Source: Deltaproteobacteria bacterium (GTDB lineage Bacteria; Desulfobacterota; GWC2-55-46; DRQE01). Taken from it: a DNA stretch of 64,000 bases. The position numbers were made by a program, and so were the translations under genes. This document shows positions 11,757 to 48,797 of the stretch, piece after piece. The notes beneath the pieces are model-generated. The model was not told where the DNA came from. It was given only the letters and a program-made list of their open reading frames with translations, and ran no database searches. Location: NCBI GenBank assembly GCA_024278765.1, contig JAJRSM010000034.1, positions 12,051 to 76,050 on the forward strand, read 5' to 3'. How positions within the stretch are numbered: the first letter of the stretch is position 1; each line of letters begins with the position of its first letter.

Positions 11757-12251
11757 ATGAAGGTTAAGGGAAGTGTTTGGAAGTTTGGAGCTGATGTTGA
11801 TACCGATAGGATAATTCCTGCCAGGTACTTAAATACCTCTGACCCAAAGGAGTTGGCAAAGTGTTGTATGGAGGATGCCGACCCTGAATTCAGCAAGCAT
11901 GTCGAAAAGGGAGACATCATAATGGCCGATAAAAACTTCGGTTGCGGGTCTTCGCGCGAGCATGCGCCTATATCAATAAAGGCCAGCGGCGTTTCGTGTG
12001 TTATTGCAAAAAGCTTTGCCCGTATCTTTTACAGGAATTCTTTTAATATGGGGCTGCCTATCCTTGAATGCGCCGAGGCCGTTGACGGAACAAAGGCCGG
12101 AGACAAAGTAGAGGTTGACATGGGCAAGGGAGAGGTATATAACATAACTCGAAAGAAGACTTATCAGGCACGCCCAGTGCCACCCTTTATGCAGGAACTG
12201 GTAGGGGCCGGAGGCCTTATGAAATGGATAAAAAAAAGGGGGAAGGTATGA
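11757..12251 (+). CDS. leuD: 3-isopropylmalate dehydratase small subunit
   Basis: 164 aa; 'GSVWKFGADVDTDRIIPARYL' and 'NFGCGSSREHAP' aconitase swivel-domain motifs. Confidence 0.95.
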   Translation: MKVKGSVWKFGADVDTDRIIPARYLNTSDPKELAKCCMEDADPEFSKHVEKGDIIMADKNFGCGSSREHAPISIKASGVSCVIAKSFARIFYRNSFNMGLPILECAEAVDGTKAGDKVEVDMGKGEVYNITRKKTYQARPVPPFMQELVGAGGLMKWIKKRGKV

Positions 12252-12523
12252 GAAAGGAGAACGCTAAAAGCACTATTCTTTACACTGACAAGCTCCATAT
12301 TGAGAGCAAGACTCTTTTTCTTGATCTAAAGGAAAATGCCGGCGGTAAGTTTCTCCAGATAGCTGAGCTATCGAATGCAAGAAGAAGTACGGTCGTTATA
12401 CCCTTAAGCGGCTTTAATGAATTTATGCAGACCTTGCAGAAGATGTCTATTGAGCATCGCATCAGCGAGGGTGAGTTAGACGAAAAAGAGATCAGTGGAG
12501 AGGGAATCCTTGAAGAAGTATAA
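12248..12523 (+). CDS. PUR-alpha-like single-repeat nucleic-acid-binding protein (DUF3276 family)
   Basis: '[29 protein letters not shown]...[19 protein letters not shown]' fits the PUR-repeat pattern (Bpur/DUF3276). The ATG at 12248 overlaps the leuD stop as ATGA and follows an AGGGGGAAGG RBS. The ORF track starts at 12224. Confidence 0.55.
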
Positions 12524-13604
12524 CATACTGGCCCTGCCCGGAGACGGAATAGGCCCTGAAATAGTCAATGAAGCACTTAGAGTATTAGGTAAGGTCGCAG
12601 CACGGTTTGATGCAGAGTTTACGGTAAATGCGGCACTTGTTGGCGGAGCATCGATTGATCAGAGCGGCATGCCGCTTATGCCCGAGGTTTTAGCGGCGGC
12701 AATAGACGCGGATGCCGTCTTGCTCGGTGCCGTAGGTGGGCCGAAGTGGGAGGCCATGGATTATTCCATCCGCCCCGAGCGTGCCCTGCTTGCTCTGCGT
12801 AAAGAGCTTGGCCTTTTTGTGAACCTGCGCCCGGCAAAGGTCTACGGTCCGCTCATTGATTCCTCTACGCTTAAGCGTGAGGTCATCGAGGGCGTTGATA
12901 TAATGGTTCTGCGTGAACTTACCGGAGGTATCTATTTTGGTGAGCCCAGAGGCGTTGAGACGCTCCCAGACGGCACGGAACGGGGAATTAATACGTATGT
13001 CTATACAACACCAGAGATCGAGCGTATAGCGCGTGCAGCCTTTGAGGTAGCGATGAAACGTGGTAAGCGTCTTACCAGCATCGACAAGGCAAATGTCCTG
13101 GAGGCGACCGAGCTCTGGCGTAAAGTCGTCATTGAGGTCGGCAAAGATTATCCCGAGGTCGAGCTTAGCCATATGTATGTCGATAACTGTGCTATGCAGC
13201 TTGTGAGGAATCCGGGGCAGTTTGATGTCTTGGTGACCGGCAATATGTTCGGCGATATTATATCAGATGAGGCAGCGATGCTTACCGGTTCTATCGGTAT
13301 GTTGCCGTCTGCGAGCCTAAGTGCTGGTAATAAGCATGCAATGTATGAGCCGATCCACGGCAGCGCACCTGATATAGCAGGGCAGGGGATAGCTAATCCG
13401 CTTGCGACGATCCTGTCTGTCGCGATGATGCTCAGATATTCCTTTAATATGGAAGATGCTGCGGTATGGCTGGAGAGTGCCGTCGATGACGTCCTTGATA
13501 AGGGTTACAGAACCCCTGATATCTTTACCGAAGGCATGCGTAAGGTCAATTGCACCGAGATGGGCGATGCCGTCCTTGCGGAGCTTGAGGCATTGGTTAG
13601 TTAA
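12495..13604 (+). CDS. leuB: 3-isopropylmalate dehydrogenase
   Basis: 369 aa; '[14 protein letters not shown]' and the '[26 protein letters not shown]' IDH/IMDH signature. Confidence 0.95.
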
Positions 13605-13635
13605 GTCTTAGATTTTTATATCTGAATTGTTTGAA

Positions 13636-13670
13636 GCCCCCCTAAACGGTGTTTAGGGGGGCTTTTTTTT
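13636..13670. terminator. Rho-independent terminator, bidirectional (12-bp perfect stem GCCCCCCTAAAC/GTTTAGGGGGGC followed by T8)
   Basis: Read directly. Lies downstream of leuB on + and of the minus-strand accessory operon. Confidence 0.8.
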
Positions 13671-13698
13671 GCTTAGGAAGGAGAACTCGTTTTAAATG

Positions 13699-13884
13699 TT
13701 ATAATTTTTCAGGATCAAATCTTTTGCTAAATTCACCCCTTATATCTTCGAAACGTGTAAAGCCTTCTTCTTCCATATGTTGTGCAAAATCAATGCTTCG
13801 CTCAGTGCCGCAAATTGCAGACCAATAATACTTTACCTTACCAAGAGCATCTCTACCAAGAGCATCTCTTTTATTCAGCCGCAT
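13699..13884 (-). CDS. Hypothetical small protein (61 aa); in frame with a 34-aa ORF upstream (13894..13995) across a single TAA
   Basis: ORF with an AAGGAG upstream at sub-optimal spacing. Contains a 15-bp tandem duplication (TACCAAGAGCATCTC x2), seen as DALGRDALG in the protein. No family recognised. Confidence 0.3.
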   Translation of the reverse strand: MRLNKRDALGRDALGKVKYYWSAICGTERSIDFAQHMEEEGFTRFEDIRGEFSKRFDPEKL

Positions 13885-14028
13885 AATAGTTTATCTGACT
13901 CCTTGCTTTAAATTATTAGCAGTATTTGGAGACCTTAAAATCGGCTCAAAGACATTCTTATTAAGAAAAAACATTATCTCTTCATCTTTTGTCATGGTTA
14001 ACTACTATTTAGTTAATGGTTGATTTTA

Positions 14029-14280
14029 TTAAACTGCTCTTTCTTCAGGGTATACATAGACAGGGACAGTAACGGTTTTCTCTGCCTCTTCCTTTGTTAG
14101 TATCTTATGTTCGATTTCTTTTGATACTTCTGCAATCAGATATTTTTCACCACATTGTTGGCATACCCCTGCAGGTACGTCTTGGAATATGTATAATTGT
14201 TCTTTGTAGCGGTAGTCCAGCTCGACTTTTTCCGGGCTTACTTGACCTCCGCACTGTGAACAGTCTCCGTATTTATGCAT
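14029..14280 (-). CDS. YgiT-type zinc-finger protein (MqsA-like N-terminal domain), putative antitoxin
   Basis: 83 aa with two CxxC pairs ('CSQCGG...CQQCGE'), matching the YgiT-type zinc-finger family (N-terminal zinc-ribbon domain of MqsA antitoxins). Starts 6 bp downstream of the DUF4258 gene. Confidence 0.6.
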   Translation of the reverse strand: MHKYGDCSQCGGQVSPEKVELDYRYKEQLYIFQDVPAGVCQQCGEKYLIAEVSKEIEHKILTKEEAEKTVTVPVYVYPEERAV

Positions 14281-14285
14281 TTTAT

Positions 14286-14597
14286 TTACTCCTTTTCGGT
14301 TCTCGTTCTGTCGTTAGTCCATTTCGGTTTTTTTGGTAAATAGACCGTTAGTATCCGAATCCACTGGTTAGTCGAATATCCACATACTATGTGTATGGGT
14401 TTATTGTCAGAATAGCCTAAGATCAGACAGCTTTTTCCTCTTTGGTCATTAGGATAGTTCTCTAATATTTCGCCGTTTAAAATAGCTCTTTCCAAATCCT
14501 CTATTGTTATATCTTCTGCGTATCTTTCTTTTTCGCCGTGGAGGCTAATCTCATATTTGTTGGTTTGTATCTTTAATTTAATCTCTGCCATCTCCAT
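14286..14597 (-). CDS. DUF4258-family protein, putative toxin partner of the YgiT-type antitoxin
   Basis: 103 aa; the size and the 'SCLILGYSDNKPIHIVCGY' core resemble DUF4258 proteins, which are usually encoded immediately upstream of YgiT zinc-finger genes. Confidence 0.5.
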   Translation of the reverse strand: MEMAEIKLKIQTNKYEISLHGEKERYAEDITIEDLERAILNGEILENYPNDQRGKSCLILGYSDNKPIHIVCGYSTNQWIRILTVYLPKKPKWTNDRTRTEKE

Positions 14598-14641
14598 CTT
14601 AAGTTTATATCATATTTCTTGGATTTTAACAATATAGCAAG

Positions 14642-16933
14642 CTACCTCCCCAGCCATCTCTTCAGCACCATAATCGCCGTTCTTTTATCCAGCGGTTCGT
14701 TGTTGTTACCGCAGTGGGGGTCCTGGGTGCACGACGGACACGAGACCACGCAGGGGCAGTCCTCCATAAGTTCTAATGTCGCCTCAAACCAATGTTCGAC
14801 CATATCAAAGCCACGCCCTGTCAGGCCTATACCACCCTCAACGCCGTCGTAGATAAAGATCGCCGGCTGCTCTAGGTCAGGATTAATCGGGAAGTAACTG
14901 ACCCCTCCCAGATCATTGCGGTCACAGATGGCAAAGAGCGGCAGGGCTGCGATCTGAGCGTGTTCAAGGGCGTGCATGCCTCCTGCGCCGTCGTAGCCGA
15001 GCTCTTTGGCCTCAAGCAGTATATCTTCACCGACCGTCATCCAGACGCCCTTTGTCGTAAAGACATGCGGCGGCAGGTCCAGATAGATCTCGTCTATAAC
15101 CTTCCTTGTATTTATATCTTTTTTCATATAACCCAACACAGTCTCGGTCGTCCTTAGCGTACCTCGGCTTATAACAAGGCCGCCAGAGCCAACTGATTTT
15201 TCGCTGTCGATAGACAGAATCTCGGTATCCTCGTCACTAAGCGGGGTTGTGTAGTAATTCAGATCGACCTCCTGGCAGAAGACCTCTTTATCGCCCAGAT
15301 GCAGGCCCGTTACCTTATACTGCGAGCCACGGTGCAGGTAGATCGCACCCGGGTGCAGCTCTCGCAGGACACGCGTAGAGTCGGCCTCACCGAGCAGCGT
15401 CTTATCGTCTGCGATTATCCTGAAGGCACTTCCCGTGCCTCTAATCGATACGCCGTTATGTGGACGGCGACTGCGAGTTATCCATGTTTTTTTAACCGGC
15501 AGATACAGAACCCTTTTATCGCGCGTGAGTGTTTTTAGTGCCGGCTCTATATCTTCCCGATCAAAGACCTCTTCGGTGCTCTCCATCGGAACCTCGCTAA
15601 AGGCGCAAGGCAGGTGTGCTTCCAGTATTGGCAGGTTTGCTGTATCCAAAGTTGCGGCCTCTACGTTACGTCTGAAAAAATCAGTCGGATGGCGCATAAA
15701 GTATTTATCTAGTGCGTCTTCTATGGCGATCATTATAATAAGGGACTCTCGTCCTTTTCGTCCGACGCGTCCGGCGCGTTGCCATGTAGAGCTTATAGTC
15801 CCGGGATAACCGATCAGTATGCATACGTCAAGGCCGCCGATATCAACGCCTAATTCCAGTGCGCTCGTTGTGATCACTCCGTGCAGTTCGCCGCTGAAGA
15901 GTCGCGCCTCGATCTCTCGGCGTTCTTCGGGCAGGAAGCCCGAGCGGTAAGAGCTTACTACTTGGGTAAGTTCAGGGCGGCCCTGCGAGACCCACCGATA
16001 TATAAGTTCTGTAATTTTACGAGACTTTGTAAAGGCAATCGTCTTAAAACCCTGTTCGACCGACTCGCAGAAGAGTTTTGTCGCAACCGAGTAGGGGCTC
16101 TGGCCTTCTTCCGGGTCAATGAAGATAAAGTTGCGTTTACCCTGCGGTGCGCCGGACTCGGTTATGGCCTGAAACGGCAGGCCTGTGAGACGCTCTGCGA
16201 GTTCTATTGGATTTGCTATAGTCGCTGAGCAGGTTATGAACTGCGGGTCTGCATCGTAAACGGCTGCGATTCTGCGAAGTCTTCTGATAAGTTGCGCTAC
16301 GTGCGAGCCAAGCACACCACGGTATGTGTGGAGTTCGTCTAATACGATATACTTCAGACCTTTGAAAAACTCCGCCCAGTTCTGATGAAAGGCGCAGATG
16401 CCGAGATGGAGCATATCAGGGTTTGTTAGTAGGATGTTCGGTGGCTTCTCACGAATCTTTTTGCGCTTATAATCGGTCGTATCACCGTCGTATATAGCCG
16501 CGATATTTTTATGGTCAATCCCTTCTATTGATTTGGTGAATTCATTGATACCCTTTAGCTGGTCCTGCGTAAGGCTCTTGAGCGGAAAGATATATAGAGC
16601 GTGTGCCTCAGGGTCATTCAAGACCGCCTCAACAACAGGGATGTTATAGATCAGGCTCTTACCACTTGCCGTCGGGGTCATTACAACGACGTTCCTGCCT
16701 TCTCTGATCAGGTTTATAGCATCGGTCTGATGAGAGTAGAGTTTTTCGCGGTCAATGGCCGCAAGGTTTTGCTGGAGTGCATCCGGCAGGGGTTTTTTAA
16801 GCGCACCGTATACGGGGGCTATAGCTCGCAGTTCTTCGTGATGAACGAGCTGGCGCAGGTCTTTACGGGTCTTGAGTTCTTTAATTAGAGTTGATATATC
16901 TTTTTTCATAGCGTCAATGTATGGAAAGCTCAT
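14642..16933 (-). CDS. MrfA/YprA-like superfamily-2 DEAH helicase with C-terminal DUF1998 zinc-binding domain
   Basis: 763 aa; Walker A 'TPTASGKS', 'DELH' motif II, 'SAT' motif III, HELICc; the C-terminus 'CPCVVSCPSCTQDPHCGNN' is the four-Cys DUF1998 signature. Confidence 0.8.
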   Translation of the reverse strand: MSFPYIDAMKKDISTLIKELKTRKDLRQLVHHEELRAIAPVYGALKKPLPDALQQNLAAIDREKLYSHQTDAINLIREGRNVVVMTPTASGKSLIYNIPVVEAVLNDPEAHALYIFPLKSLTQDQLKGINEFTKSIEGIDHKNIAAIYDGDTTDYKRKKIREKPPNILLTNPDMLHLGICAFHQNWAEFFKGLKYIVLDELHTYRGVLGSHVAQLIRRLRRIAAVYDADPQFITCSATIANPIELAERLTGLPFQAITESGAPQGKRNFIFIDPEEGQSPYSVATKLFCESVEQGFKTIAFTKSRKITELIYRWVSQGRPELTQVVSSYRSGFLPEERREIEARLFSGELHGVITTSALELGVDIGGLDVCILIGYPGTISSTWQRAGRVGRKGRESLIIMIAIEDALDKYFMRHPTDFFRRNVEAATLDTANLPILEAHLPCAFSEVPMESTEEVFDREDIEPALKTLTRDKRVLYLPVKKTWITRSRRPHNGVSIRGTGSAFRIIADDKTLLGEADSTRVLRELHPGAIYLHRGSQYKVTGLHLGDKEVFCQEVDLNYYTTPLSDEDTEILSIDSEKSVGSGGLVISRGTLRTTETVLGYMKKDINTRKVIDEIYLDLPPHVFTTKGVWMTVGEDILLEAKELGYDGAGGMHALEHAQIAALPLFAICDRNDLGGVSYFPINPDLEQPAIFIYDGVEGGIGLTGRGFDMVEHWFEATLELMEDCPCVVSCPSCTQDPHCGNNNEPLDKRTAIMVLKRWLGR

Positions 16934-17061
16934 GCGGCTGGATACTGCGAAAGTAAGTCTGTGTGGCTATTTAGAAGGCCTTTAAAGGATAGCCTATGGA
17001 GCAATATGAATAGTATAAGTTCTTGTTACGTAAAGATTATTTATATCATCTTGCATTTGGT

Positions 17062-17090
17062 TTGACAAGTTTGATTTGAGAGGGTAAGAT
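17062..17090 (+). promoter_or_regulatory. Sigma70-like promoter (TTGACA-17-TAAGAT) upstream of the zinc-ribbon ORF
   Basis: -35 TTGACA at 17062-17067, a 17-nt spacer, -10 TAAGAT at 17085-17090. An AAGGGGAAG RBS precedes the ATG at 17140. Confidence 0.4.
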
Positions 17091-17139
17091 TATTAAGATT
17101 AACGGGAACGGAAAATTATCAAGGGGAAGATGAATTTAG

Positions 17140-17448
17140 ATGACGATCTTTAGATGCCAGAGTTGTAGAAGAGAATTGCCGCGTGAAGGCATAAAATACG
17201 TTGTAGAGGTCAGGAGTTTTGCTGATTTTGACGGCTATCTGGAAGAATATCCAGGTGATATTGATGATGGTTTAGAGGAACTTCTGGATGCAATGGAGAA
17301 TATAGATCCATGCACGATGGAGGACGATGTCTATATGGAGCATACCTATATCGTATGTAAGTCTTGTAGAGACCGCTTTGCAAGAGATCCTTTTCATACA
17401 GAGACCTTTGCCGAGGCAGAAGAGATCGCCAAGGGAACACTGCATTAA
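17140..17448 (+). CDS. Hypothetical acidic zinc-ribbon protein
   Basis: 102 aa with 'CQSC' near the N-terminus and 'CKSC' near the C-terminus. Has its own promoter and RBS and is followed by a strong terminator. No family recognised. Confidence 0.5.
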   Translation: MTIFRCQSCRRELPREGIKYVVEVRSFADFDGYLEEYPGDIDDGLEELLDAMENIDPCTMEDDVYMEHTYIVCKSCRDRFARDPFHTETFAEAEEIAKGTLH

Positions 17449-17478
17449 TCAAAGCTCTTATGTCAAGCAATGACCAAA

Positions 17479-17505
17479 GGGAGTCGCATAGCGACTCCCT
17501 TTTTT
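17479..17505 (+). terminator. Rho-independent terminator (GGGAGTCGC-ata-GCGACTCCC followed by T6)
   Basis: Perfect 9-bp stem and a U-tract, directly after the zinc-ribbon ORF. Confidence 0.8.
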
Positions 17506-18228
17506 GTGGTTTGCTGCGCACGGTAAAGAACAACCTAACATGTCACCCTGAACTTGATTCAGGGTCTGTATTTGTTTTTGCGCAAGGTGATAAAGCAAGA
17601 ACAGATGCTGAACTAAATTCAGCATGACAAATAGGGTGTTTAGTTATAATCGTTGCTGATAACTATCTGGCGATTTTGCGACAAAGGTGCTTTGCTCTGC
17701 GCAGGAGTTTGCCCCACCGCAGGTGGTGCTGCGCACGGTAAAGAACAACCTAAGATGCCACCCTGAACTTGATTCAGGGTCTGTATTTGTTTTTGCGTAA
17801 GGTGATAAAGCAAGAACAGATGCTGAACTAAATTCAGCATGACAAATATGGTATTTAGTTGTAATCGTTGCTGATAACTATCTGCTGATTTTGCGACGAA
17901 GGTGCTTTGCTCTGCGCAGAAGTTTGCCCTACCGCAGGTCGGCTTCCCCTAGGTGGGCGTTTGTAAGGTCGGCAAAGTGTTTTAAGATGGTTCGGAAAGG
18001 CGCGTAGCAGGGTGTGACCCAATGAATTTGTCCCACCGCAGGAGTTTGCCCCACCGCAGGTGGTGCTGCGCACGGCAAATTAATCAATATGATTAATTAC
18101 TACGCGTTGCACGGAACTTTCTGATGCGCTTCGCTCACCGCAGGTGCGCAAAGTAAATGCATTAACCAGGTTTTGTCTTTGCGGCGAAGCCGCTTTGCTC
18201 TCCGCAGGAGTGCCGCCCCGCATGGGGC
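17506..18228. repeat. Complex non-coding repeat locus. A ~215-bp unit is tandemly duplicated (17513-17727, 17728-17942), with a third partial copy from about 18065. Each unit carries hairpins CCCTGAA-cttga-TTCAGGG and ATGCTGAA-ctaaa-TTCAGCAT and multiple CACCGCAGGTG motifs.
   Basis: Read directly. Units are more than 95% identical. Minus-strand ORFs 17640..17840 and 17855..18073 are near-identical repeat artefacts. The locus lies between convergent genes. Confidence 0.75.
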
Positions 18229-19002
18229 TTATTTGCCGAGCGGTAGGCGTTTTGCATTTATATCGGGCAGGCCGGCGGCTATGATTTTTTCTGCTGTTGT
18301 TTTGAAATCATAGCCGACCAGGTGGAATTCTATTTCATATGTTGCGGAGTTAAAGGTAAGAAAGCCTGCCCTTGGATCTCCGTCTCGTGGCTGCCCTACA
18401 GAGCCCGGATTTATGAGGTATAGCTTGTCTTTTTCGATCTTGATTTTTTCTTTGTGAGGTGTTGGCAACTCTTTGATTGTATCTTCGATATGGTCAAGGG
18501 TTGAGTCTCCTGTCGGGGTTAAAGAGTATATACTCCTTCTGTGTGTATGCCCCAGAAATGCCAGAGGCAGGGTGCGGGCATCCAGCATTAGCTTGAAGGC
18601 AGCGGCTGCTGCGTATTTTGAACTTATATATTTATTTGTTATATCTTTTGGTGAGTGTAAGGCTATGAAGAGGTTGTCAACTGCGATCTCTGGTGGAAGA
18701 TCTTGTAGGAAGTCTTTATTTTCTTTTGTTAGTCTTTCCCTAGTCCATAGGATGGATTTTTCTGCTGGCTCGTTAAGGTTGTAAGGATCAGTCGTTGATA
18801 CCGCCTCTTCGTCGTGGTTGCTGGCTATGGCGGTTATCGCCAGGTCTTTTATCAGGGCCACGCACTCGTTCGGGTCAGCATTGTAGCCGACTATATCGCC
18901 GAGACTTACAATGCGGTCTACTTCCAGCTCACTGACGTGGTTAAGCACGGCGTGTAGGGCCGCAATGTTTGAGTGTATGTCTATGAGCACTGCGTAGCGC
19001 AT
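18229..19002 (-). CDS. Metallophosphoesterase (calcineurin-like, YfcE/MJ0936-type)
   Basis: 257 aa; 'DIHSNIAALHAV', 'GDIVGYNADP' and 'GHTHRR' are the metal-ligand motifs of the calcineurin-like phosphoesterase fold. Confidence 0.75.
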   Translation of the reverse strand: MRYAVLIDIHSNIAALHAVLNHVSELEVDRIVSLGDIVGYNADPNECVALIKDLAITAIASNHDEEAVSTTDPYNLNEPAEKSILWTRERLTKENKDFLQDLPPEIAVDNLFIALHSPKDITNKYISSKYAAAAAFKLMLDARTLPLAFLGHTHRRSIYSLTPTGDSTLDHIEDTIKELPTPHKEKIKIEKDKLYLINPGSVGQPRDGDPRAGFLTFNSATYEIEFHLVGYDFKTTAEKIIAAGLPDINAKRLPLGK

Positions 19003-19055: not shown

Positions 19056-21746
19056 TTACAGAGTGCCTTGCGGCAAGGTGTTTTCTTCTTCCTGAGTCTC
19101 GTCTGTCCTAGGTGAGACCCTGGGTGATTGAAGGGGATCGGGCTCTGACTCAGGTGCGTCAATATCATCATAATCTTCGATGAAGGACTCGGTAGGAGTC
19201 TCTGTCGGTGCTTCCTCTGCGTCTATCATAAAGAAGTCGTCTTCGCTTGGCGTATCTACAGTGGGCGATACGCTGGTCGGTGTTGTGCCTGTCTTAAAGA
19301 CCTCAAAGAGGGCCTCTTTTGTAGATGAACTGGCCAGTAGTCCTGTCTCTTTGTCTATTCTTACGAACTCAACGCCGTCGGGGATCGGGAAGTTCTCTGG
19401 CGGTACGTCTTCCAAGGCTTTTTTCATGAACTTTACCCAGATTGGTGCTGCGGCTTTTGAGCCGGTCTCGTTCTTGCCAAGCGGCTTTTCATTGTCGTGT
19501 CCAAACCACACGCCTGCCACCAGATTTGGAACGTAGCCCATAAACCATGCGTCATTGAGGTTGTTGGTAGTTCCTGTCTTACCGGCTGCGGGTCGTTTAA
19601 GTGCGCGTGCCCTCCAGCCTGTGCCGTTCTCGACTACACCTTGTAAGAGGTTGGACATGAGGTAGGCCGTCTGTGGGCTTATGACCTCTTCTGATACCGG
19701 TGTGTTTTCTTCCAGCGTGTTGCCGTAACGGTCAAGTATCTTTGTAATGTATATTGGCTCGGTACGTACTCCGAGGTTTGCAATTGTGCTAAATACGCGT
19801 GTCATCTCCATAAGTGTTACGGCAGACGAGCCAAGGGCCAGCGAGAGATCTGGTGCTAGCTCTGAATCTATGCCGAGTTTTCTTGCGGTCTCGATTGCTT
19901 TTCTAACGCCGACGTCACGCAGGACCTTGATGGTAACGACGTTGCGGGACTTTGCCAGAGCTTGCCTGATGGTGGTAGGGCCGTGGAACTTCTTCTCAAA
20001 GTTTCTGGGCGTCCAGTCCCATGTCTCAGGCTCTTCTTCTTCGGCCAGCAGCTTGGTGGCATCCGGGTCAATAATTTCAACACCGTTTTCGTCTAGTTCC
20101 GGCTCTGGTTCTTTTTTTTGTACGATTTCTTCAAAGACGATAGGCGAATCTACTACGATAGTAGCAGGGGTATAGTCGCCGTCAAGGGCTGTAACGTAAG
20201 TGATCGGTTTAAAGGCAGAGCCGGGTTGGCGTTTTGCCTGAATGACGCGGTTAAACTGGGTCTTTTTAAATGATGAACCACCGACCATGGCCTTGACGTA
20301 TCCGGTAGACGGCTCTATTGCGACAAGGGCAGCCTCGGCCAGTGGCTCTTGGACGAGTCTAAGGTAGATCGGTGGCAGGTCTTTTATCGGTGTCTCAACC
20401 TGCGCAGGCTCTTCATTCGAGCCGGTACTCTCGCCGTGTATCGTTGCGATCTTCGGTTCAACGGGCTCTTTTGGCTCGGGGATGTAGCGGACCTTTACAT
20501 TTATAACATCGCCCGGGTTAAAGAGGGTAAGCGGATCTACGATCTTACCGCCGTCTGGGTCAAGCTTTGGGTTGGGGTTATATAGTTTTGCCCATGCAAA
20601 GTTTCTGTATTTTATCTTGGCCTTTCGGCTGCCGACGGTTACGTGGATGATCTTTCTTCTTGGGTCTACCGACCTTACCACGCCCTGGTAAACGCTGTTG
20701 AGCTTTAGCGGGTTACGCAGGAGCTTGCGGTCCATCTCTTTGCTGAAGAGCTTGATATCTTTTTCTTCGGTAAGGGTAAAGATAGGTCCTCTGTAGCCAC
20801 GCCTGCGTTCATAGCCCCTGAGCCCGTAATCTACGGCCTCGTTTGCGGCGCGTTGCATATTAATGTCAAGGGTCGTAAAGATGTGTAGTCCGCCTTGATA
20901 CAAGAGGTCTTTTCCGTAGTTATTTTCAACGTAGCGTCTGACGTGCTCGGTAAAGTAAGGGGCGACCCATAGGTTCTGGTTGCGTTTTGGCTTTAGGATA
21001 ATGTTGCGGTTCAGTGCGTTGTCGGCCTGATCTCTGCTTATATAGTTTTCTTCAACCATGCGCTGGATGACGAATTTCTGTCGTTTTCGGGCGAGTTTCG
21101 GGTTCTGATAAGGCGAGTAATTGCTGGGTGCTTTAGGAAGGCCTGCCAGCAGAGCGCTCTCGGCTATATCGAGGTCTTCGACATCTTTACCGTAATAGGA
21201 CTCGGCAGCGGCCTGAATGCCGTATGCTCCGCTGCCAAAGTAGATCTGGTTGAGGTAGAGGTAGAGGATATCTTCTTTAGAGAGGCGTTTTTCAATGCGG
21301 TAGGCTAAAATTGCTTCTTTTACCTTTCGCACCACCCGGCGCTCGGGAGAGAGAAAGAAGCTCTTGGCGACCTGCTGGGTTATGGTGCTTCCGCCCTGGA
21401 CGATCTTACCGGCGCTCATATTTTTATAGAAGGCCCTGACAATACTCAGGTAATCGATACCTTTGTGTTGAAAGAACTTTGCGTCTTCGGCAGCCAGGAA
21501 GGCTTTTAAGAGGTGGTCTGGGATCTTATTTAGCGCTACGACCTTTCTTCGTTCAATGTAGTACTCGCCGATGATGCTACCGTCTCTGGAGTAGACCTTT
21601 GTTATGAGGTTTGGGCGGTATTCATCCAGTGCCTCAATATGTGGGAGGTTTCGGGTAAAGATAAAGTAGGAGGAAGCTGCCAGTACTAAAGGAAGTACCA
21701 CGAAGATTCCGAGAATGTAGAGTGTTATCTTTTTTAGGCGTTGCAT
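19056..21746 (-). CDS. mrcA: Penicillin-binding protein 1A (bifunctional glycosyltransferase/transpeptidase) with acidic low-complexity C-terminal tail
   Basis: 896 aa; N-terminal TM segment, GT51 motifs ('EDAKFFQHKGID', 'GGSTITQQVAK'), and a transpeptidase SxxK ('SAFKP'). Confidence 0.9.
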   Translation of the reverse strand: MQRLKKITLYILGIFVVLPLVLAASSYFIFTRNLPHIEALDEYRPNLITKVYSRDGSIIGEYYIERRKVVALNKIPDHLLKAFLAAEDAKFFQHKGIDYLSIVRAFYKNMSAGKIVQGGSTITQQVAKSFFLSPERRVVRKVKEAILAYRIEKRLSKEDILYLYLNQIYFGSGAYGIQAAAESYYGKDVEDLDIAESALLAGLPKAPSNYSPYQNPKLARKRQKFVIQRMVEENYISRDQADNALNRNIILKPKRNQNLWVAPYFTEHVRRYVENNYGKDLLYQGGLHIFTTLDINMQRAANEAVDYGLRGYERRRGYRGPIFTLTEEKDIKLFSKEMDRKLLRNPLKLNSVYQGVVRSVDPRRKIIHVTVGSRKAKIKYRNFAWAKLYNPNPKLDPDGGKIVDPLTLFNPGDVINVKVRYIPEPKEPVEPKIATIHGESTGSNEEPAQVETPIKDLPPIYLRLVQEPLAEAALVAIEPSTGYVKAMVGGSSFKKTQFNRVIQAKRQPGSAFKPITYVTALDGDYTPATIVVDSPIVFEEIVQKKEPEPELDENGVEIIDPDATKLLAEEEEPETWDWTPRNFEKKFHGPTTIRQALAKSRNVVTIKVLRDVGVRKAIETARKLGIDSELAPDLSLALGSSAVTLMEMTRVFSTIANLGVRTEPIYITKILDRYGNTLEENTPVSEEVISPQTAYLMSNLLQGVVENGTGWRARALKRPAAGKTGTTNNLNDAWFMGYVPNLVAGVWFGHDNEKPLGKNETGSKAAAPIWVKFMKKALEDVPPENFPIPDGVEFVRIDKETGLLASSSTKEALFEVFKTGTTPTSVSPTVDTPSEDDFFMIDAEEAPTETPTESFIEDYDDIDAPESEPDPLQSPRVSPRTDETQEEENTLPQGTL

Positions 21747-36189: not shown

Positions 36190-37497
36190 ATGAAAAGATT
36201 ACTATTAAAAGGCGGCAGGGTACTAGACCCTTCGCGTTCGGTCGATGGCCTCTATGACGTTATAGTCTTTGGCGGTAAGGTAGCTTCGATTAAGGCCTCG
36301 GATGATCAGGCCTCGCCAAGCGAGGCCGAGACAGACGCGGGTTGGGAGGGTATTGATTGTGCGGGACTTTTGATCGTCCCGGGTCTTATCGATATACATA
36401 CGCACCTGCGCGAGCCGGGCTTTGAGTATAAAGAGACGATAAAGACCGGCACCGAAGCAGCCGTTGCCGGAGGTTTTACGACGATCCTGTGTATGGCGAA
36501 TACCGAGCCTATAAACGACAATGGCTCGGTAAGCCGTTTTATAGTTAGGCAGGGGCATGATCTGAAGCTTGCAAATGTCCTGCCGATCGGGGCCGTGACC
36601 ACTGGTTTTAAAGGCTCGCAACTAACAGAGATGGCAGAGTTGCAAGAGGCCGGGTGCGTAGCCCTCTCTGATGATGGTCTACCGATAACCGATGCGGCTA
36701 TTATGCGTCGTGCTCTGGAGTACGCAAAGGGGCTTGATCTTACCGTTATCAGCCACGCCGAAGAGCCTGCGCTTGTAGCAGGCGGTGCTATGCACGAGGG
36801 TGATGTCTCAACAAGGCTTGGCCTTAAGGGGATACCATCTGAAGCAGAGTCAGTGATGGTGGCCCGGGATGTTCTTTTATCCGAACTTACCGGAGGCAAG
36901 CTGCATGTTGCGCACGTAAGCACCAAAGGTGCACTCGATATAATCCGTGAAGCAAAAAAACGTGGCGTAAACGTAACGGCAGAGGCCAGTCCGCATCATC
37001 TGATGCTTACCGATCACGCCGTCTCTGATTACGGCACTGAGTTTAAGATGAACCCGCCGCTTCGAGCCGGTGATGATAGAGCTGCGCTTCGCGCTGCTAT
37101 TAAGGACGGAACAATAGATACGATAGCGACCGATCACGCACCGCATTCTTCGATTGAAAAAGACGTCGAATTCGATAGTGCCGCAAATGGCGTGGTTGGG
37201 CTAGAGACCTCGCTTGGCGTAGTCTTGAGGCTCGTTGATAAAGGTGAACTGACGCTTGCTGAGGTTATAAGGGCTATGACGATAAATCCGGCGATTGCGA
37301 TGGGTCTTGAAAAAGGCACTCTGCAAGTCGGGCGTGACGCAGATATTACGATAATAGATCTTAATAAAGAATGGACGGTCGAGCCGGAAAACTTTAAGAC
37401 AAAAGGGCGCAACACCCCCTTTGCAGGATGGAAGCTAAAGGGCCGTGCCATAAGAACGATAGTCGGCGGGCGTACCGTCTTTGAACTCATTGCGTAA
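36190..37497 (+). CDS. pyrC: Dihydroorotase (multifunctional-complex type)
   Basis: 435 aa amidohydrolase; 'DIHTHLREPG' metal-binding motif. Confidence 0.85.
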   Translation: MKRLLLKGGRVLDPSRSVDGLYDVIVFGGKVASIKASDDQASPSEAETDAGWEGIDCAGLLIVPGLIDIHTHLREPGFEYKETIKTGTEAAVAGGFTTILCMANTEPINDNGSVSRFIVRQGHDLKLANVLPIGAVTTGFKGSQLTEMAELQEAGCVALSDDGLPITDAAIMRRALEYAKGLDLTVISHAEEPALVAGGAMHEGDVSTRLGLKGIPSEAESVMVARDVLLSELTGGKLHVAHVSTKGALDIIREAKKRGVNVTAEASPHHLMLTDHAVSDYGTEFKMNPPLRAGDDRAALRAAIKDGTIDTIATDHAPHSSIEKDVEFDSAANGVVGLETSLGVVLRLVDKGELTLAEVIRAMTINPAIAMGLEKGTLQVGRDADITIIDLNKEWTVEPENFKTKGRNTPFAGWKLKGRAIRTIVGGRTVFELIA

Positions 37498-37925
37498 CCA
37501 CCTGCGGTGGGGCTAAGTCCAGTAAGTGAGTTCCAGAGCAGCACGTAGTAATAAATTAAATTGATGGATTGGCAGTGCGCAGTACCTGTGTGAGTTAAAG
37601 CAACTTCGTCACAGTAGTAATTATATTTTACTGTCATTGCGAGGAACAGAAGCCCCGAGCATAGCGACGGGGTCTGCGACAAAGCAATCTCGTTTTGTTT
37701 GGAGGCAAACCTTCAGGTTTGCATGTTTACAGGGTTGACTGGTTTAGTGAATTGTCATTGCGAGGAACGTAGGGTCTAAGACCCGTAGAGACGAAGCAAT
37801 CTAGTATTTACTACCCCCTTTGAAAAGGAGAAATTTAAGGGGATTTGAAAGTAGGGCAAGGCTTTAGCTTTGCTTTACTATAAAGCAAAGTAATAAAGTA
37901 AAAACAACGGAGATTATTTTTAGAT
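37498..37925. repeat. Intergenic repeat cluster between pyrC and carA. Contains stop-adjacent CACCTGCGGTG element copy B (37498-37570), two copies of 'TGTCATTGCGAGGAAC-hairpin-GACGAAGCAATCT' (about 37630-37695 and 37753-37810), and a 'GTAGGGCAAGGCTTTAGC' segment shared with 10170-10192.
   Basis: Read directly. Element order and sequence parallel the leuA-leuC spacer. Confidence 0.65.
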
Positions 37926-39059
37926 ATGAAAGAACGTAAAAAAGCAATGCTTGTATTATCGGACGGAACGGTCTTTGAGGGTTATTCTTTAGGCGCGGTC
38001 GGCGAAGCACCGGGCGAGGTCGTCTTTAATACCTCGCTTATGGGTTATCAGGAAATCTTGACCGATCCGTCGTATAAGGGCCAGATAGTCACGATGACCT
38101 ATACCGAGCAGGGAAACTACGGGGTGAACCTTGAAGACATCGAGTCTTGCAAGCCATGGGTAAGCGGCTTTATCGTAAAGCAGGCCTGCGCCTACCCGAG
38201 CAGTTGGCGTAACAATAAAAAAGGCGGCATGACGCTCGACGCATATCTTAAAGAGAGCAATGTCGTTGGTATTGAAGGTATAGATACCCGTGCGCTTACT
38301 CGTCATATCCGCAAAGAGGGAGCAATGCCAGGCATTATATCTTCGGTTGACCTTGATGCAGAGAGCCTCTATAAGAAGGCCATGGCGATACCAACGCTCG
38401 CCGGGCAAGACCTCGCAAAAGAAGTCACCTGTAAAGAACCATACCAGTGGACAGAAGGGCTCTGGGATATGGAGAATGGGTATTGCGAAGACTCGGAAAA
38501 ACCAAAATATAAAGTCGTTGCCTTTGACTTCGGAATAAAATTTAATATTCTGCGCTCGCTCGTCAGTACTGGCTGCGAGGTGACGGTCGTCCCTGCCAGC
38601 ACTACGGCAGCAGAGGTTATGGAGATGAACCCGGACGGGATTTTCCTCTCTAACGGTCCGGGCGATCCCGAGCCCGTAGACTATGCACAGAAGACGATTA
38701 AGGAACTCATAGGTAAAAAGCCAATCTTTGGAATATGTCTTGGTCATCAGCTGCTGAGCCTAGCCCTTGGCGGCAAGTCATTTAAACTCAAGTTCGGCCA
38801 TAGGGGCGGTAACCAGCCCGTGATGGATCTGACGACTAGGAAGGTCGAGATAACCTCGCAGAACCACGGCTTTGCAATAGACGCAGACTCGATGGAGGGG
38901 CTCGCCGAGCTTACGCACATCAACTTGAATGACAAGACCGTTGAAGGGATTCGTGGTGAGGCCAGAAAATTATTTACGGTACAGTACCACCCCGAGGCCT
39001 CTCCCGGCCCACATGACTCGCATTACCTCTTTAAGAGGTTTACCGATATGATGGGGTGA
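37926..39059 (+). CDS. carA: Carbamoyl-phosphate synthase small (glutaminase) subunit
   Basis: 377 aa; CPSase_sm_chain N-domain plus class-I GATase ('GICLGHQLL' catalytic Cys, 'HPE'). Confidence 0.9.
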
Positions 39060-39100
39060 GGGGTTGATAAGTTTTACCTTAACTAGATTTGGAGGTTACT

Positions 39101-40189: not shown

Positions 40190-40191
40190 AT

Positions 40192-40695
40192 ATGATAGTC
40201 AAAGGCTATATTCGTGATAATTTAGACAGGTTGGAGAACCTATATTATGTAGATTCAGCTGGTCTTGCTGGATTTCTTTACTCTAAATTGGCAATTCTTG
40301 AGCTCGGTGGTTGGGCTGAAGAGTCAATGGAAGATATTGTTTTGAGGCATGCAAAACGTCATCTAAGAAAGGAGCTTAAATTTAATAGTTTTAAGAAATA
40401 CCATGTTGATAAAAACCATGGTTTTCATTACGAGAAAAACTTTTTCGTAATGTTAATAAAACTTATTGGCATTGTCAATGTTGAGCGCATTGAAAGAAAG
40501 ATTGATTTGTTAAGATTTGACCAGATGAAGTCAGCCTTAAGTACTCTTAAGTACAGTCGTAATAGTTTAGCACATACGCACACTAAGGGAATTACTGTAA
40601 CTATAGATACACCATCTATAACGAAGAAATCTTTCGTGCGTATATTAGAAGGTTTTAAAGAGTTTGATAATATTTTAAGAACTTTAAGTTTCTAA
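40192..40695 (+). CDS. Small HEPN-like protein (Rx4H motif; resembles the MAE_28990/MAE_18760 HEPN-like nuclease family often found beside DUF262 genes)
   Basis: 167 aa, predicted helical; 'SRNSLAHTH' near the C-terminus is an Rx4-6H HEPN-type motif. The start codon is 2 bp after the DUF262 stop. Family assignment is by recollection, not by search. Confidence 0.45.
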   Translation: MIVKGYIRDNLDRLENLYYVDSAGLAGFLYSKLAILELGGWAEESMEDIVLRHAKRHLRKELKFNSFKKYHVDKNHGFHYEKNFFVMLIKLIGIVNVERIERKIDLLRFDQMKSALSTLKYSRNSLAHTHTKGITVTIDTPSITKKSFVRILEGFKEFDNILRTLSF

Positions 40696-48189: not shown

Positions 48190-48202
48190 AGTGGGTTCGT
48201 AC

Positions 48203-48496: not shown

Positions 48497-48797
48497 CTTC
48501 GCATGGCTGCGAGCTATCTAGGATGTCATCCTGAACTTGATTCAGGATCTGTATTGGTAGTAGGCATAGAAAGATAGCTGCGTTGGCTCTGCCTCCTCGC
48601 AAAGACTTGCTTGGTGGTTTATCTTGTAAAAGGTCTATCTATGCGTCTGCATAGGCAGCAGTACCAGCCTTGCCTTTGAATATTCCACTTCAAATCCTAT
48701 TGACAAATAGCCTCATGGATAGTAATCTAATGTGCTCTGAGTCGAGTGATCTTTTCAGAGTATAGTTACGAAATACTAGAAGAAAAAGGAGTTTTAG

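What the first reader, a model, noticed from the sequence alone, without database searches (positions are those of the whole stretch)
13672..18228. Accessory block between leuB and the PBP1A region: MrfA-like DUF1998 helicase, DUF4258/YgiT toxin-antitoxin pair, orphan zinc-ribbon gene and a repeat field
Between two conserved core segments lies a 4.5-kb block. On the minus strand the order is MrfA/YprA-like DEAH helicase with DUF1998 zinc domain, DUF4258 toxin, YgiT zinc-finger antitoxin, then two tiny ORFs. A separately promoted acidic zinc-ribbon ORF sits on the plus strand, followed by 0.7 kb of tandem repeats. MrfA normally partners the MrfB exonuclease in DNA crosslink repair, but no MrfB is present. 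Helicase-DUF1998 is also the core of DISARM DrmA-like defence proteins. Co-location with a TA pair and repeat-rich DNA suggests a mobile or defence-associated context rather than plain housekeeping.
Basis: partly seen in the sequence, partly recalled or inferred. Interest (0 to 1): 0.55.

Follow-up and report, generated by a model that had tools for sequence, protein, structure and literature searches.

The report
Core repair helicase plus small mobile inserts
The 4.5-kb "accessory block" is mostly conserved housekeeping genes (a MrfA-type repair helicase and a zinc-ribbon gene), and only a 1-kb toxin-antitoxin cassette, a dead passenger gene and a field of selfish-type intergenic repeats are truly variable, so it is ordinary.

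Summary
All the listed features are present. The block is a mosaic, not one accessory or defence island.

- **Helicase (14642-16933, minus):** a full-length MrfA/YprA-type helicase. About 20 relatives with 55-62% identical helicases keep it next to the zinc-ribbon gene, a metallophosphoesterase (MPE), PBP1A and, in many, leuB. It is a vertically inherited "YprA-only" repair helicase. It has none of DrmA's features. No MrfB is in the window or the syntenic loci.
- **Zinc-ribbon gene:** not an orphan. It forms a conserved pair with the MPE gene.
- **Variable segment (13670-14645, GC 0.36 against 0.51-0.53):** it holds a self-contained two-gene toxin-antitoxin cassette. The DUF4258 toxin's predicted fold best matches E. 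coli MqsR. The antitoxin is a YgiT zinc finger without the helix-turn-helix (HTH) DNA-binding domain.
- **The "two tiny ORFs":** one about 95-aa gene linked to mobile elements, killed by a nonsense codon and a 15-bp duplication.
- **Strain-level evidence:** two contigs 98.8% identical from the helicase stop codon onward differ at this junction. One carries the cassette, the other an acyltransferase gene.
- **Repeat field:** a fast-evolving cluster of REP/REPIN-like palindromes that also occur in other intergenic gaps of the window.

Interest is low.

The parts
13633..13665 (+). leuB intrinsic terminator hairpin. It marks the left edge of conserved DNA.
   Evidence: 15-bp stem with 8 GC pairs, followed by a T run. 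Homology to the close relative L083 ends at 13669.
13670..14645 (.). Variable, horizontally acquired segment of 976 bp between the leuB terminator and the helicase stop codon.
   Evidence: GC is 0.36 against 0.51-0.53 in the flanks. Homology to L083 stops at 13669 and resumes at 14646, and L083 has an Acyl_transf_3 gene here instead. In L004, L002 and L041 the leuB-helicase gap is only 25-81 bp.
13699..13995 (-).
   Evidence: The joined translation aligns over 100% of its length to 95-aa homologues. An in-frame TAA at 13891-13893 replaces a Tyr present in 12 of the 13 aligned homologues. The 5-aa RDALG duplication is unique to the window. The gene is intact in the close relatives L017 and L018.
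13839..13868 (.). 15-bp perfect tandem duplication inside the pseudogene.
   Evidence: Repeat family D11, TACCAAGAGCATCTC x2. Absent from all homologues.
14029..14280 (-). Antitoxin: an 83-aa YgiT-type zinc finger, equivalent to the MqsA N-terminal domain only, without an HTH domain.
   Evidence: TIGR03831 gives 45.5 bits against a cutoff of 20.2. The Pfam MqsA match covers only profile positions 3-61 of 131. It has two CxxC pairs. It is always paired with DUF4258 in unrelated genomes.
14286..14597 (-). Toxin: a 103-aa DUF4258 protein with an MqsR/RelE-like fold.
14642..16933 (-). MrfA/YprA/SftH-family SF2 DNA helicase of the "YprA-only" repair type. A core, syntenic gene.
   Evidence: Pfam finds DEAD 67-242, Helicase_C 288-394, WHD_HRQ1 430-500 and MZB 656-736. 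TIGR03817 gives 696 bits over the full length. PDB 6ZNP YprA matches at E 9e-148, residues 10-736 to 5-730. Synteny is conserved in about 20 loci.
17062..17090 (+). Promoter-like site for the zinc-ribbon gene.
   Evidence: TTGACA-17-TAAGAT, 10 of 12 matches. This is a consensus match only.
17140..17448 (+). Conserved acidic zinc-ribbon protein (102 aa, pI 4.39), the usual partner of the MPE gene.
   Evidence: 139 clusters at 50% identity, all about 100 aa long. Cys 6, 9, 73 and 76 are invariant. It is adjacent to MPE in 22 of 24 loci.
17476..17502 (+). Intrinsic terminator of the zinc-ribbon gene.
   Evidence: 12-bp stem with 7 GC pairs, followed by a T run. Conserved in L031, L032 and L083.
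17512..17939 (.). Tandem duplication of a 215-nt composite repeat unit.
   Evidence: Tandem Repeats Finder gives period 215, 2.0 copies, 94% matches. Repeat family D1 is 95% identical.
17542..17628 (.). REPIN-like doublet 1: two 27-nt palindromic units in inverted orientation.
   Evidence: The pattern GTCAYSCTGAAYTTRRTTCAGSRTCTG matches at 17542-17568 (+) and 17602-17628 (-). They fold into one long hairpin with a z-score of -5.
17757..17843 (.). REPIN-like doublet 2, the copy in the second tandem unit.
   Evidence: Matches at 17757-17783 (+) and 17817-17843 (-).
17940..18228 (.). Partial copies of other palindromic modules (GAGTTTGCCCCACCGCAGG..., GGTGCTGCGCACGGCAAA...).
   Evidence: Repeat families D2-D4. 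The 19-mer is found 5 times in the window against 0.01 expected. Related pieces lie at 37497-37586.
18229..19002 (-). Calcineurin-like metallophosphoesterase (MPE, 257 aa), inverted relative to the zinc-ribbon gene in this subclade.
   Evidence: Metallophos_2, E 2.5e-14. It is co-directional with the zinc-ribbon gene in 17 loci and convergent in 5.

Best explanation
The region is a mosaic of four unrelated things that happen to lie side by side.

(1) The helicase is a vertically inherited DNA-repair helicase of the MrfA/YprA/SftH family. It carries a RecA1-RecA2 core, a winged helix and the zinc-binding MZB canopy. It belongs to the "YprA-only" type that works without an adjacent MrfB exonuclease. 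By homology it is a 3'-to-5' single-strand DNA translocase.

(2) The acidic zinc-ribbon gene and the metallophosphoesterase form a conserved gene pair next to PBP1A. In this subclade the phosphoesterase gene has been inverted.

(3) The junction between the convergent 3' ends of leuB and the helicase is a hot spot where foreign DNA comes and goes. In this genome it holds two items:
- A self-contained, horizontally mobile type II toxin-antitoxin cassette. The toxin is a DUF4258 protein with an MqsR-like RNase-toxin fold. It is followed by a YgiT zinc-finger antitoxin, which presumably neutralises the toxin by direct binding, as the MqsA N-terminal domain does with MqsR. The antitoxin has no DNA-binding domain.
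- The decaying remnant of a second small gene linked to mobile elements.

(4) The zinc-ribbon/MPE spacer is filled by rapidly turning-over REP/REPIN-like palindromic repeats, which also occupy other intergenic gaps of this genome.

Shown here: the domain and fold assignments, the synteny, the strain-level polymorphism, the pseudogenisation and the dispersal of the repeats.
Inferred: helicase activity and a repair role, RNase activity of the toxin and its neutralisation by the antitoxin, and mobilisation of the repeats by a RAYT-type transposase.
For: Helicase identity:
- Pfam DEAD, Helicase_C, WHD_HRQ1 and MZB.
- Full-length match to TIGR03817.
- B. subtilis YprA crystal structure 6ZNP at E 9e-148.

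Helicase is core:
- The helicase is conserved next to the zinc-ribbon gene, MPE, PBP1A and (in many loci) leuB in relatives with 55-62% identical helicases.
- All flanking window genes are housekeeping: ilv/leu genes, PBP1A, relA, pur genes.

Variable segment:
- GC is 0.36 against 0.51-0.53 in the flanks.
- L083 and L031 are 98.8% identical from the helicase stop codon onward, yet carry an acyltransferase gene and the DUF4258 cassette respectively.
- Other relatives have 25-81 bp, UvrD plus MsrB, or other genes at this junction.

The cassette is a mobile unit:
- The same DUF4258 plus 83-94-aa YgiT pair lies between unrelated genes in other bacteria and in a Methanoperedenaceae archaeon, at 64-73% toxin identity.
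- The syntenic L037 copy is only 58% identical to the window toxin, yet 67-71% identical to unrelated copies.

Pseudogene. Its family sits in plasmids and next to recombinases, IS elements and restriction-modification genes.

Zinc-ribbon/MPE pair: 22 of 24 loci.

Repeats:
- 7 copies of the 27-nt palindrome in the window against 0 expected.
- Pieces occur in four other places outside this block, three of them in large intergenic gaps.
- The same spacer in L031, L032 and L083 holds different arrangements of related modules.
- No Rfam family matches.
Against: - Nothing here tests activity. Helicase function, toxin RNase activity and antitoxin neutralisation all rest on homology and predicted fold.
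- DUF4258 has no experimentally characterised member.
- A DUF4258/YgiT cassette lies directly downstream of the helicase in two non-sister lineages, the window clade and L037. That could hint at more than coincidence.
- The window repeats begin with GTCA rather than the canonical REP GTAG/GGAG, and no RAYT gene is present in the 64 kb.
- The helicase scores below the curated TIGR03817 cutoff (696 against 874 bits).
Confidence: 0.82

Rival explanations
1. The whole 4.5-kb block is an accessory, defence-associated island in which the DUF1998 helicase acts like a DrmA/DISARM-type antiphage protein, together with the toxin-antitoxin pair.
For: - PADLOC and NCBIfam give partial hits to BrxH, SngC, DruE, DpdF/J and DrmA models.
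- YprA-family helicases are the core of DISARM, Dpd, Druantia and ARMADA.
- A toxin-antitoxin pair and repeats lie alongside.
Against: - The defence-model hits cover only the generic RecA core, residues about 60-410. The DISARM DrmA model aligns 53 residues out of 1329.
- The protein is 763 aa with the MZB domain fused. Only about 45 residues separate RecA1 from RecA2, so there is no BrxA-like insert, and there is no C-terminal nuclease.
- No DrmB, DrmC or methyltransferase neighbours are present.
- The helicase is syntenic in about 20 relatives, whereas the toxin-antitoxin pair and the repeats are not.
Confidence: 0.04
2. The DUF4258/YgiT cassette is functionally coupled to the helicase. For example, it could be co-transcribed with it as a damage-responsive module, which would explain why it lies 31-44 bp downstream of the helicase stop codon in two separate lineages.
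For: - The cassette lies directly 3' of the helicase in the window, L017, L018 and L031, and in the distant L037.
- No terminator or consensus promoter was detected between the helicase and the toxin.
- The antitoxin lacks a DNA-binding domain, so it cannot autoregulate as MqsA does.
Against: - Most relatives with the same helicase lack the cassette.
- A contig 98.8% identical to L031 from the helicase stop onward has an acyltransferase gene at this junction instead.
- The closest cassette homologues sit next to unrelated genes such as Sua5 and a tRNA synthetase, with no helicase nearby.
- The junction also receives other cargo: a RAYT gene, UvrD plus MsrB, and a protease.
Confidence: 0.07
3. 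The zinc-ribbon protein and the metallophosphoesterase form a lineage-specific repair module with the helicase. The phosphoesterase would supply the nuclease role that MrfB plays in Bacillus.
For: - The zinc-ribbon gene and MPE are adjacent in 22 of 24 loci.
- The helicase is divergently adjacent to the zinc-ribbon gene in 11 of 17 loci with enough flank.
- The linkage survives an inversion of MPE and the insertion of ccsA/resB-like genes.
- Some calcineurin-like phosphoesterases, such as Mre11 and SbcD, are nucleases (general knowledge).
Against: - Six loci keep the zinc-ribbon gene with no helicase within about 5.4-6 kb upstream. Five of them also keep MPE and four keep PBP1A. The pair therefore tracks PBP1A, not the helicase.
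- The MPE matches YfcE-type phosphodiesterases, not SbcD/Mre11.
- More distant helicase homologues (L005-L014) show no detectable zinc-ribbon or MPE neighbours.
- No structural or interaction evidence was obtained.
Confidence: 0.07

Closest known systems
B. subtilis MrfA (YprA) and M. smegmatis SftH: DUF1998/MZB SF2 DNA helicases of the repair branch, "YprA only" subgroup of Bell et al. 2025
   Same: - Same length class: 763 aa here against 751 aa in the crystallised chain.
- Same domain order: RecA1, RecA2, winged helix, MZB.
- End-to-end sequence match.
- No conserved operon partner, as described for the "YprA only" subgroup.
   Different: - No adjacent MrfB exonuclease, unlike B. subtilis mrfAB.
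- It scores below the actinobacterial TIGR03817 cutoff.
- Its placement in the published tree was not computed here.
E. coli MqsR-MqsA (YgiU-YgiT) type II toxin-antitoxin system
   Same: - The toxin gene comes first.
- The antitoxin has the YgiT/MqsA zinc-finger domain that binds MqsR in structure 3HI2.
   Different: - By sequence the toxin belongs to Pfam DUF4258, not the MqsR family (2% identity in the structural alignment).
- The antitoxin is 83 aa and lacks the C-terminal HTH-XRE DNA-binding domain, so MqsA-style operator binding is not possible.
- Activity is untested for any DUF4258 member.
REP / REPIN elements and BIME-like clusters mobilised by RAYT (Y1) transposases (Nunvar et al. 2010 and Bertels & Rainey 2011, cited from memory)
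   Same: - A 27-nt imperfect palindrome, extragenic and dispersed in several intergenic gaps.
- Units occur as inverted doublets that fold into a long hairpin.
- Units are clustered and tandemly amplified, with rapid turnover between close relatives.
   Different: - The 5' tetranucleotide is GTCA, not GTAG or GGAG.
- No RAYT gene lies in the window.
- Genome-wide copy number is unknown.
- The field also contains other, unrelated palindromic modules.
DISARM DrmA/DrmB and other defence-branch YprA helicases (Druantia DruE, Dpd DpdJ/F, ARMADA)
   Same: They share the SF2 core and, more distantly, the DUF1998/MZB zinc domain.
   Different: - Those proteins are much larger, or split into two proteins.
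- They carry inserted domains or fused nucleases.
- They sit in conserved defence operons and are patchily distributed.
- None of this applies here.

Membership tests
MrfA/YprA helicase family (repair branch) | SF2 core with Walker A and DExH motifs | tested here: met
   DEAD gives 111.8 bits and Helicase_C 51.2 bits. TASGKS and DELH can be read in the translation.
MrfA/YprA helicase family (repair branch) | Winged-helix domain after RecA2 and a C-terminal zinc-binding MZB/DUF1998 domain, fused in one polypeptide | tested here: met
   WHD_HRQ1 gives 30.9 bits (cutoff 27). MZB gives 75.7 bits (cutoff 24.2) at residues 656-736, with the Cys cluster CPCVVSCPSC...C.
MrfA/YprA helicase family (repair branch) | Full-length collinearity with a characterised member | tested here: met
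   6ZNP_A (B. subtilis YprA), E 9.2e-148, query residues 10-736 to chain residues 5-730.
MrfAB operon (B. subtilis type) | Adjacent MrfB/YprB DEDDh exonuclease gene | tested here: not met
   No RNase_T/DnaQ domain in any window ORF of at least 90 aa. In the syntenic relatives whose junction was read, the genes downstream of the helicase are leuB, the toxin-antitoxin cassette or other cargo, never an exonuclease. The rest of the genome could not be searched.
MrfA/YprA helicase family (repair branch) | 3'-to-5' DNA helicase activity and a role in mitomycin C damage repair | not testable with these tools
   Needs biochemistry and genetics.
DISARM DrmA / defence-branch YprA helicases | Large or split architecture (DrmA plus a separate DUF1998 protein DrmB), inserted BrxA-like or zinc domains, or a C-terminal nuclease | tested here: not met
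   The protein is 763 aa with MZB fused. The RecA1-RecA2 linker is about 45 aa. The protein ends 27 aa after MZB. The DrmA models align only to RecA2.
DISARM DrmA / defence-branch YprA helicases | Conserved operon with DrmB, DrmC (PLD nuclease) and a methyltransferase, in a patchy defence-island context | tested here: not met
   The neighbours are leuB, the zinc-ribbon gene, MPE and PBP1A, conserved across about 20 relatives.
DUF4258 toxin family (PF14076; RelE/ParE superfamily) | Sequence match above the Pfam gathering score | tested here: met
   71.9 bits against a cutoff of 25, profile positions 1-70 of 71.
DUF4258 toxin family (PF14076; RelE/ParE superfamily) | RelE/MqsR-like (BECR) fold | tested here: met
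DUF4258 toxin family (PF14076; RelE/ParE superfamily) | Toxicity that is neutralised by the cognate antitoxin | not testable with these tools
   No member has been characterised (Table 1 of PMC11980606).
MqsRA toxin-antitoxin family | Toxin belongs to the MqsR sequence family (PF15723) | tested here: not met
MqsRA toxin-antitoxin family | Antitoxin N-terminal zinc-finger (YgiT) domain, with the toxin gene upstream | tested here: met
   TIGR03831 gives 45.5 bits against 20.2. The gene order is toxin then antitoxin with a 5-nt gap.
MqsRA toxin-antitoxin family | Antitoxin C-terminal HTH-XRE DNA-binding domain | tested here: not met
   The protein is 83 aa. The MqsA_antitoxin match covers only profile positions 3-61 of 131 and falls below the cutoff (23.8 against 30). 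TIGR03830 gives 23.2 against 61.8.
REP/REPIN elements | Short (20-40 nt) imperfect palindrome, extragenic and repeated far above chance | tested here: met
   7 copies of the 27-nt unit in 64 kb against 0 in 100 shuffles. All lie outside confident coding sequence.
REP/REPIN elements | Inverted doublets that form a larger hairpin (REPIN) | tested here: met
   Doublets at 17542-17568 (+) / 17602-17628 (-) and at 17757-17783 (+) / 17817-17843 (-). The fold gives one long stem with a z-score of -4.97.
REP/REPIN elements | Conserved 5' GTAG/GGAG tetranucleotide | tested here: not met
   The units start with GTCA. By contrast, the REPs flanking the RAYT gene in relative L037 start with GTAG.
REP/REPIN elements | A cognate RAYT (Y1 transposase) in the genome and hundreds of copies genome-wide | not testable with these tools
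   No Y1_Tnp domain in the 64-kb window. The rest of the genome is not available. Relative L037 has a Y1_Tnp gene (24.5 bits) flanked by its own REPs at the leuB-helicase junction.

The most novel reading that the evidence does not exclude
The most novel reading not excluded has two parts.

(1) The 3' end of the MrfA-type helicase gene is a preferred landing site for promoterless cargo. Independently acquired DUF4258/YgiT "minimal MqsRA" cassettes would then be expressed by read-through from the repair helicase. That would tie a toxin whose antitoxin lacks a DNA-binding domain to DNA-damage-dependent transcription.

(2) Alternatively or in addition, the conserved zinc-ribbon/metallophosphoesterase pair is the missing nuclease partner of "YprA-only" helicases in Thermodesulfobacteriota.
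Probability: 0.1. Interest if true: 0.5.

Novelty: new member of a known kind. Interest (0 to 1): 0.22.

Why it matters
The main value is a cleaner annotation. A helicase with a DUF1998 domain next to a toxin-antitoxin pair should not be read as a defence system when synteny shows it to be a core gene. This example shows how to separate the repair ("YprA only") branch from the defence branch of the family.

Secondary points that could seed small studies:
- The DUF4258/YgiT pairs look like a stripped-down MqsRA system without the DNA-binding half of the antitoxin, and no member has been tested.
- An about 95-aa four-helix-bundle family with no Pfam model recurs next to recombinases, IS elements and restriction systems.
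- The zinc-ribbon/metallophosphoesterase gene pair is conserved next to PBP1A in this lineage and has no known function.
- The leuB-helicase junction is a clear strain-level insertion hot spot.

Tried and rejected
- **Rfam on 13400-18400:** permissive thresholds gave only sub-threshold hits on the leuB terminator and nothing in the repeat field. A known RNA family was rejected.
- **PADLOC:** many hits to the helicase, all confined to the generic SF2 core. No hits for the toxin-antitoxin proteins, the zinc-ribbon protein or MPE. Membership of a defence system was rejected.
- **CRISPR-like reading of the repeat field:** rejected, because whole units including the would-be spacers are duplicated.
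- **PDB sequence searches** with the toxin and the antitoxin found nothing meaningful.
- **Exact look-ups:** the window's own helicase, and the NCBI protein P0002 (100% identical to the 61-aa half of the pseudogene), are not on record as encoded genes, so the source contig could not be retrieved.
It was repeated with 11 sequences.
- **REP consensus in the fetched loci:** no exact match. The close relatives carry diverged versions of the unit.
- **Target-site duplications or inverted repeats at the edges of the 13670-14645 segment:** not found by eye.

Full report
**1. What is there**

The region begins after leuB (12495-13604, +) and its strong terminator hairpin (13633-13665). On the minus strand it then holds:

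- two small ORFs, 13699-13884 and 13891-13995;
- an 83-aa YgiT-type zinc-finger protein (14029-14280; TIGR03831, 45.5 bits against a cutoff of 20.2);
- a 103-aa DUF4258 protein (14286-14597; 71.9 bits against 25);
- a 763-aa helicase (14642-16933) with DEAD, Helicase_C, WHD_HRQ1 and MZB/DUF1998 domains.

On the plus strand lies a 102-aa acidic protein (pI 4.39) with two CxxC pairs (17140-17448). It has a promoter-like site and a clean terminator. A repeat-rich spacer runs from 17511 to 18228. After it come a 257-aa calcineurin-like metallophosphoesterase (MPE, 18229-19002, minus) and PBP1A (19056-21746, minus).

**2. The helicase is a core MrfA/YprA-type gene, not a defence gene**

- It matches the B. 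subtilis YprA (MrfA) crystal structure sequence end to end (6ZNP, E 9e-148, residues 10-736 to 5-730).
- It matches the TIGR03817 DEAH helicase model over its full length (696 bits, below the 874-bit equivalog cutoff).
- Hits to defence models (BrxH, DruE, DpdF/J, DrmA, Cas3) cover only the generic RecA core. The DISARM DrmA model aligns 53 of its 1329 positions.

Bell et al. 2025 (bioRxiv 10.1101/2025.09.15.676423) divide the YprA family into two branches. The repair branch is either "YprA only", with no conserved context, or paired with MrfB. The defence branch has helicases that are larger, carry inserted domains or fused nucleases, and sit in conserved operons. None of those defence features is present here:

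- about 45 residues lie between RecA1 and RecA2;
- the protein ends 27 residues after MZB;
- the neighbours are housekeeping genes.

A scan of species-representative genomes and a metagenome scan recovered about 20 loci from Deltaproteobacteria/Thermodesulfobacteriota metagenome-assembled genomes and contigs whose helicases are 55-62% identical. Most keep the helicase next to the zinc-ribbon gene, MPE and PBP1A. Many also have leuB and the rest of the leu cluster (PurA-like gene, leuD, leuC) downstream of the helicase. Some of them have ccsA/resB-like cytochrome c biogenesis genes inserted between the zinc-ribbon gene and the helicase.

The rest of the window is housekeeping as well: ilv/leu genes, relA, pur, rml, pyr/car, recG and pil genes. 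No RNase_T/DnaQ-type exonuclease exists among the window ORFs of at least 90 aa. In the syntenic relatives whose junction was examined, no exonuclease gene follows the helicase either. The gene is therefore best described as a "YprA-only" repair helicase.

**3. The truly variable piece is 976 bp**

The close relative L083 (a 103-kb metagenome contig) aligns to the window up to 13669, the end of the leuB terminator. The alignment resumes at 14646, at the helicase stop codon. Between these points L083 has an Acyl_transf_3 gene.

L083 is 98.8% identical over 3.4 kb to L031, starting at the helicase stop codon. Yet L031 carries the DUF4258 gene at this position. This is a strain-level presence/absence polymorphism.

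Other relatives have the following at the same junction:
- only 25-81 bp (L002, L004, L041);
- UvrD plus MsrB (L045);
- a nuclease-like gene plus a protease (L050);
- small ORFs, a RAYT transposase flanked by GTAG-type REPs, and another DUF4258/YgiT pair (L037).

The window segment has GC 0.36, against 0.51-0.53 for leuB and the helicase. The convergent leuB/helicase junction is therefore an insertion hot spot.

**4. The toxin-antitoxin cassette**

DUF4258 homologues at 64-73% identity occur in Planctomycetes, Binatia, unclassified bacteria and a Methanoperedenaceae archaeon. In each context examined, the toxin is followed immediately by an 83-94-aa YgiT/MqsA-like protein, and the flanking genes are unrelated (Sua5, Macro, a tRNA synthetase). 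The pair is therefore a self-contained mobile unit.

The window and L037 copies share the same location but are not each other's closest relatives:
- The toxins are 58% identical and the antitoxins 65%.
- Each is 67-73% identical to cassettes from unrelated genomes.
- This argues for independent acquisition or replacement.

The antitoxin matches only the zinc-finger half of MqsA (profile positions 3-61 of 131) and is too short to hold the HTH domain.

The cassette therefore works like a minimal MqsRA. It is not a member of the MqsR sequence family, and it lacks the antitoxin's DNA-binding half. Toxin activity and neutralisation are inferred, not shown.

**5. The "two tiny ORFs" are one dead gene**

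Joined, the two ORFs align over their whole length with an about 95-aa protein family that has no Pfam model. The TAA between them replaces a Tyr present in 12 of the 13 aligned homologues. A perfect 15-bp tandem duplication (13839-13868) adds five residues found in no homologue. The gene is intact in the close relatives L017 and L018, which are 78-82% identical in DNA and have the same gene order.

Elsewhere the family lies in the following contexts:
- on rhizobial and Burkholderia plasmids;
- next to serine and tyrosine recombinases, IS elements, a Y1 transposase, MmeI-type and type ISP restriction enzymes, and HigB;
- downstream of partners that are unrelated to one another.

It is not found with the DUF4258 cassette in other genomes. 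Its model is a four-helix bundle (pLDDT 86) with no specific structural neighbour. Its function remains unknown. Here it is a decaying passenger.

**6. The zinc-ribbon gene is not an orphan**

A search of 1.84 billion representative proteins found 139 clusters, all about 100 aa long, with four invariant cysteines. All named members are "hypothetical", and all come from Deltaproteobacteria/Thermodesulfobacteriota. The nearest, at 92% identity, comes from a hydrothermal-vent metagenome.

In loci where the homologue is at least 45% identical:
- the MPE gene is adjacent in 22 of 24;
- in 17 of these it is co-directional, with gaps of 3-234 nt, which looks like an operon;
- in 5 it is convergent, as in the window, which indicates an inversion of MPE in this subclade;
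- the helicase lies upstream in 11 of 17 loci with enough flank.

The zinc-ribbon gene's firmest partner is therefore the phosphoesterase, not the helicase.

**7. The repeat field**

Only 17512-17939 is a true tandem repeat, 215 nt x 2. Each unit contains two copies of a 27-nt palindrome, GTCAYSCTGAAYTTRRTTCAGSRTCTG, in inverted orientation. Together they fold into one long hairpin (z-score -5).

The 27-nt unit occurs 7 times in the window against 0 expected. Three of those copies lie outside this block, at 25939, 44282 and 48525. Other modules of the field recur at 37497-37586. A second tandem field lies at 48192-48495.

The orthologous spacer in L031, L032 and L083 (about 80% identical in DNA) also holds repeats, but in different arrangements. 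More distant relatives have spacers as short as 3-80 nt. No Rfam family matches.

This behaviour fits REP/REPIN-type selfish palindromes clustered as in BIMEs. There are caveats. The units start with GTCA, not GTAG. No RAYT gene lies in the window. Genome-wide copy number is unknown.

**8. Verdict**

The mobile context is real but limited to a 1-kb cassette and the repeats. The helicase and the zinc-ribbon gene are conserved core genes. Nothing here departs from known kinds of elements, so interest is low.

Noticed in passing
window 39089-40695: A GmrSD_N/DUF262 protein (366 aa; PF03235, E 3.6e-24) and a following 167-aa ORF with no Pfam hit are wedged between carA (37926-39059) and carB (40732-44040). 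This looks like a type IV restriction-like defence insertion inside the carAB pair.
   Followed up: no
window 48192-48495: A second tandem repeat field: a 99-nt unit x 3 copies at 94-97% identity, downstream of the glutamate dehydrogenase gene. It contains the GGTGCTCGCCGCACGGCAAA module and is followed by a copy of the 27-nt palindrome at 48525-48551.
   Followed up: partly
window 17140-19002 and loci L032-L062: The zinc-ribbon gene and the metallophosphoesterase gene form a conserved pair, adjacent in 22 of 24 loci and often only 3-31 nt apart and co-directional. In the window's subclade the phosphoesterase is inverted. It is also much more divergent than its flanks: 63% amino-acid identity to L032 against 85-93% for the neighbouring genes, and 65% DNA identity to L083 against about 80% for the flanks.
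   Followed up: partly
L037 2158-2760: A textbook REPtron in a relative, at the same leuB-helicase junction. A 182-aa Y1_Tnp/RAYT gene (24.5 bits) is flanked by inverted GTAGGGTGGGCATTGCCCACC REP units.
   Followed up: partly
L019, L021, L024, L027, L029, L081, L082: The about 95-aa four-helix-bundle family (no Pfam model) recurs in defence islands and mobile elements. In several loci it lies 25-30 nt downstream of unrelated partner genes: DUF6414, a 224-aa protein, and a 203-aa protein following a type ISP restriction enzyme. Its role is unknown. It could be a promiscuous accessory or immunity-type protein.
   Followed up: partly
window 12224-12523: A 99-aa PurA-like (PF04845, ssDNA/RNA-binding) gene overlaps the ends of both leuD and leuB inside the leu operon. 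It is conserved there in relatives L004, L037, L050 and L083.
   Followed up: no
L001, L004, L012, L041, L046-L049, L053: In part of the clade a ccsA-like and a resB-like cytochrome c biogenesis gene lie between the zinc-ribbon gene and the helicase, co-directional with the helicase. They are absent from that position in the window.
   Followed up: no
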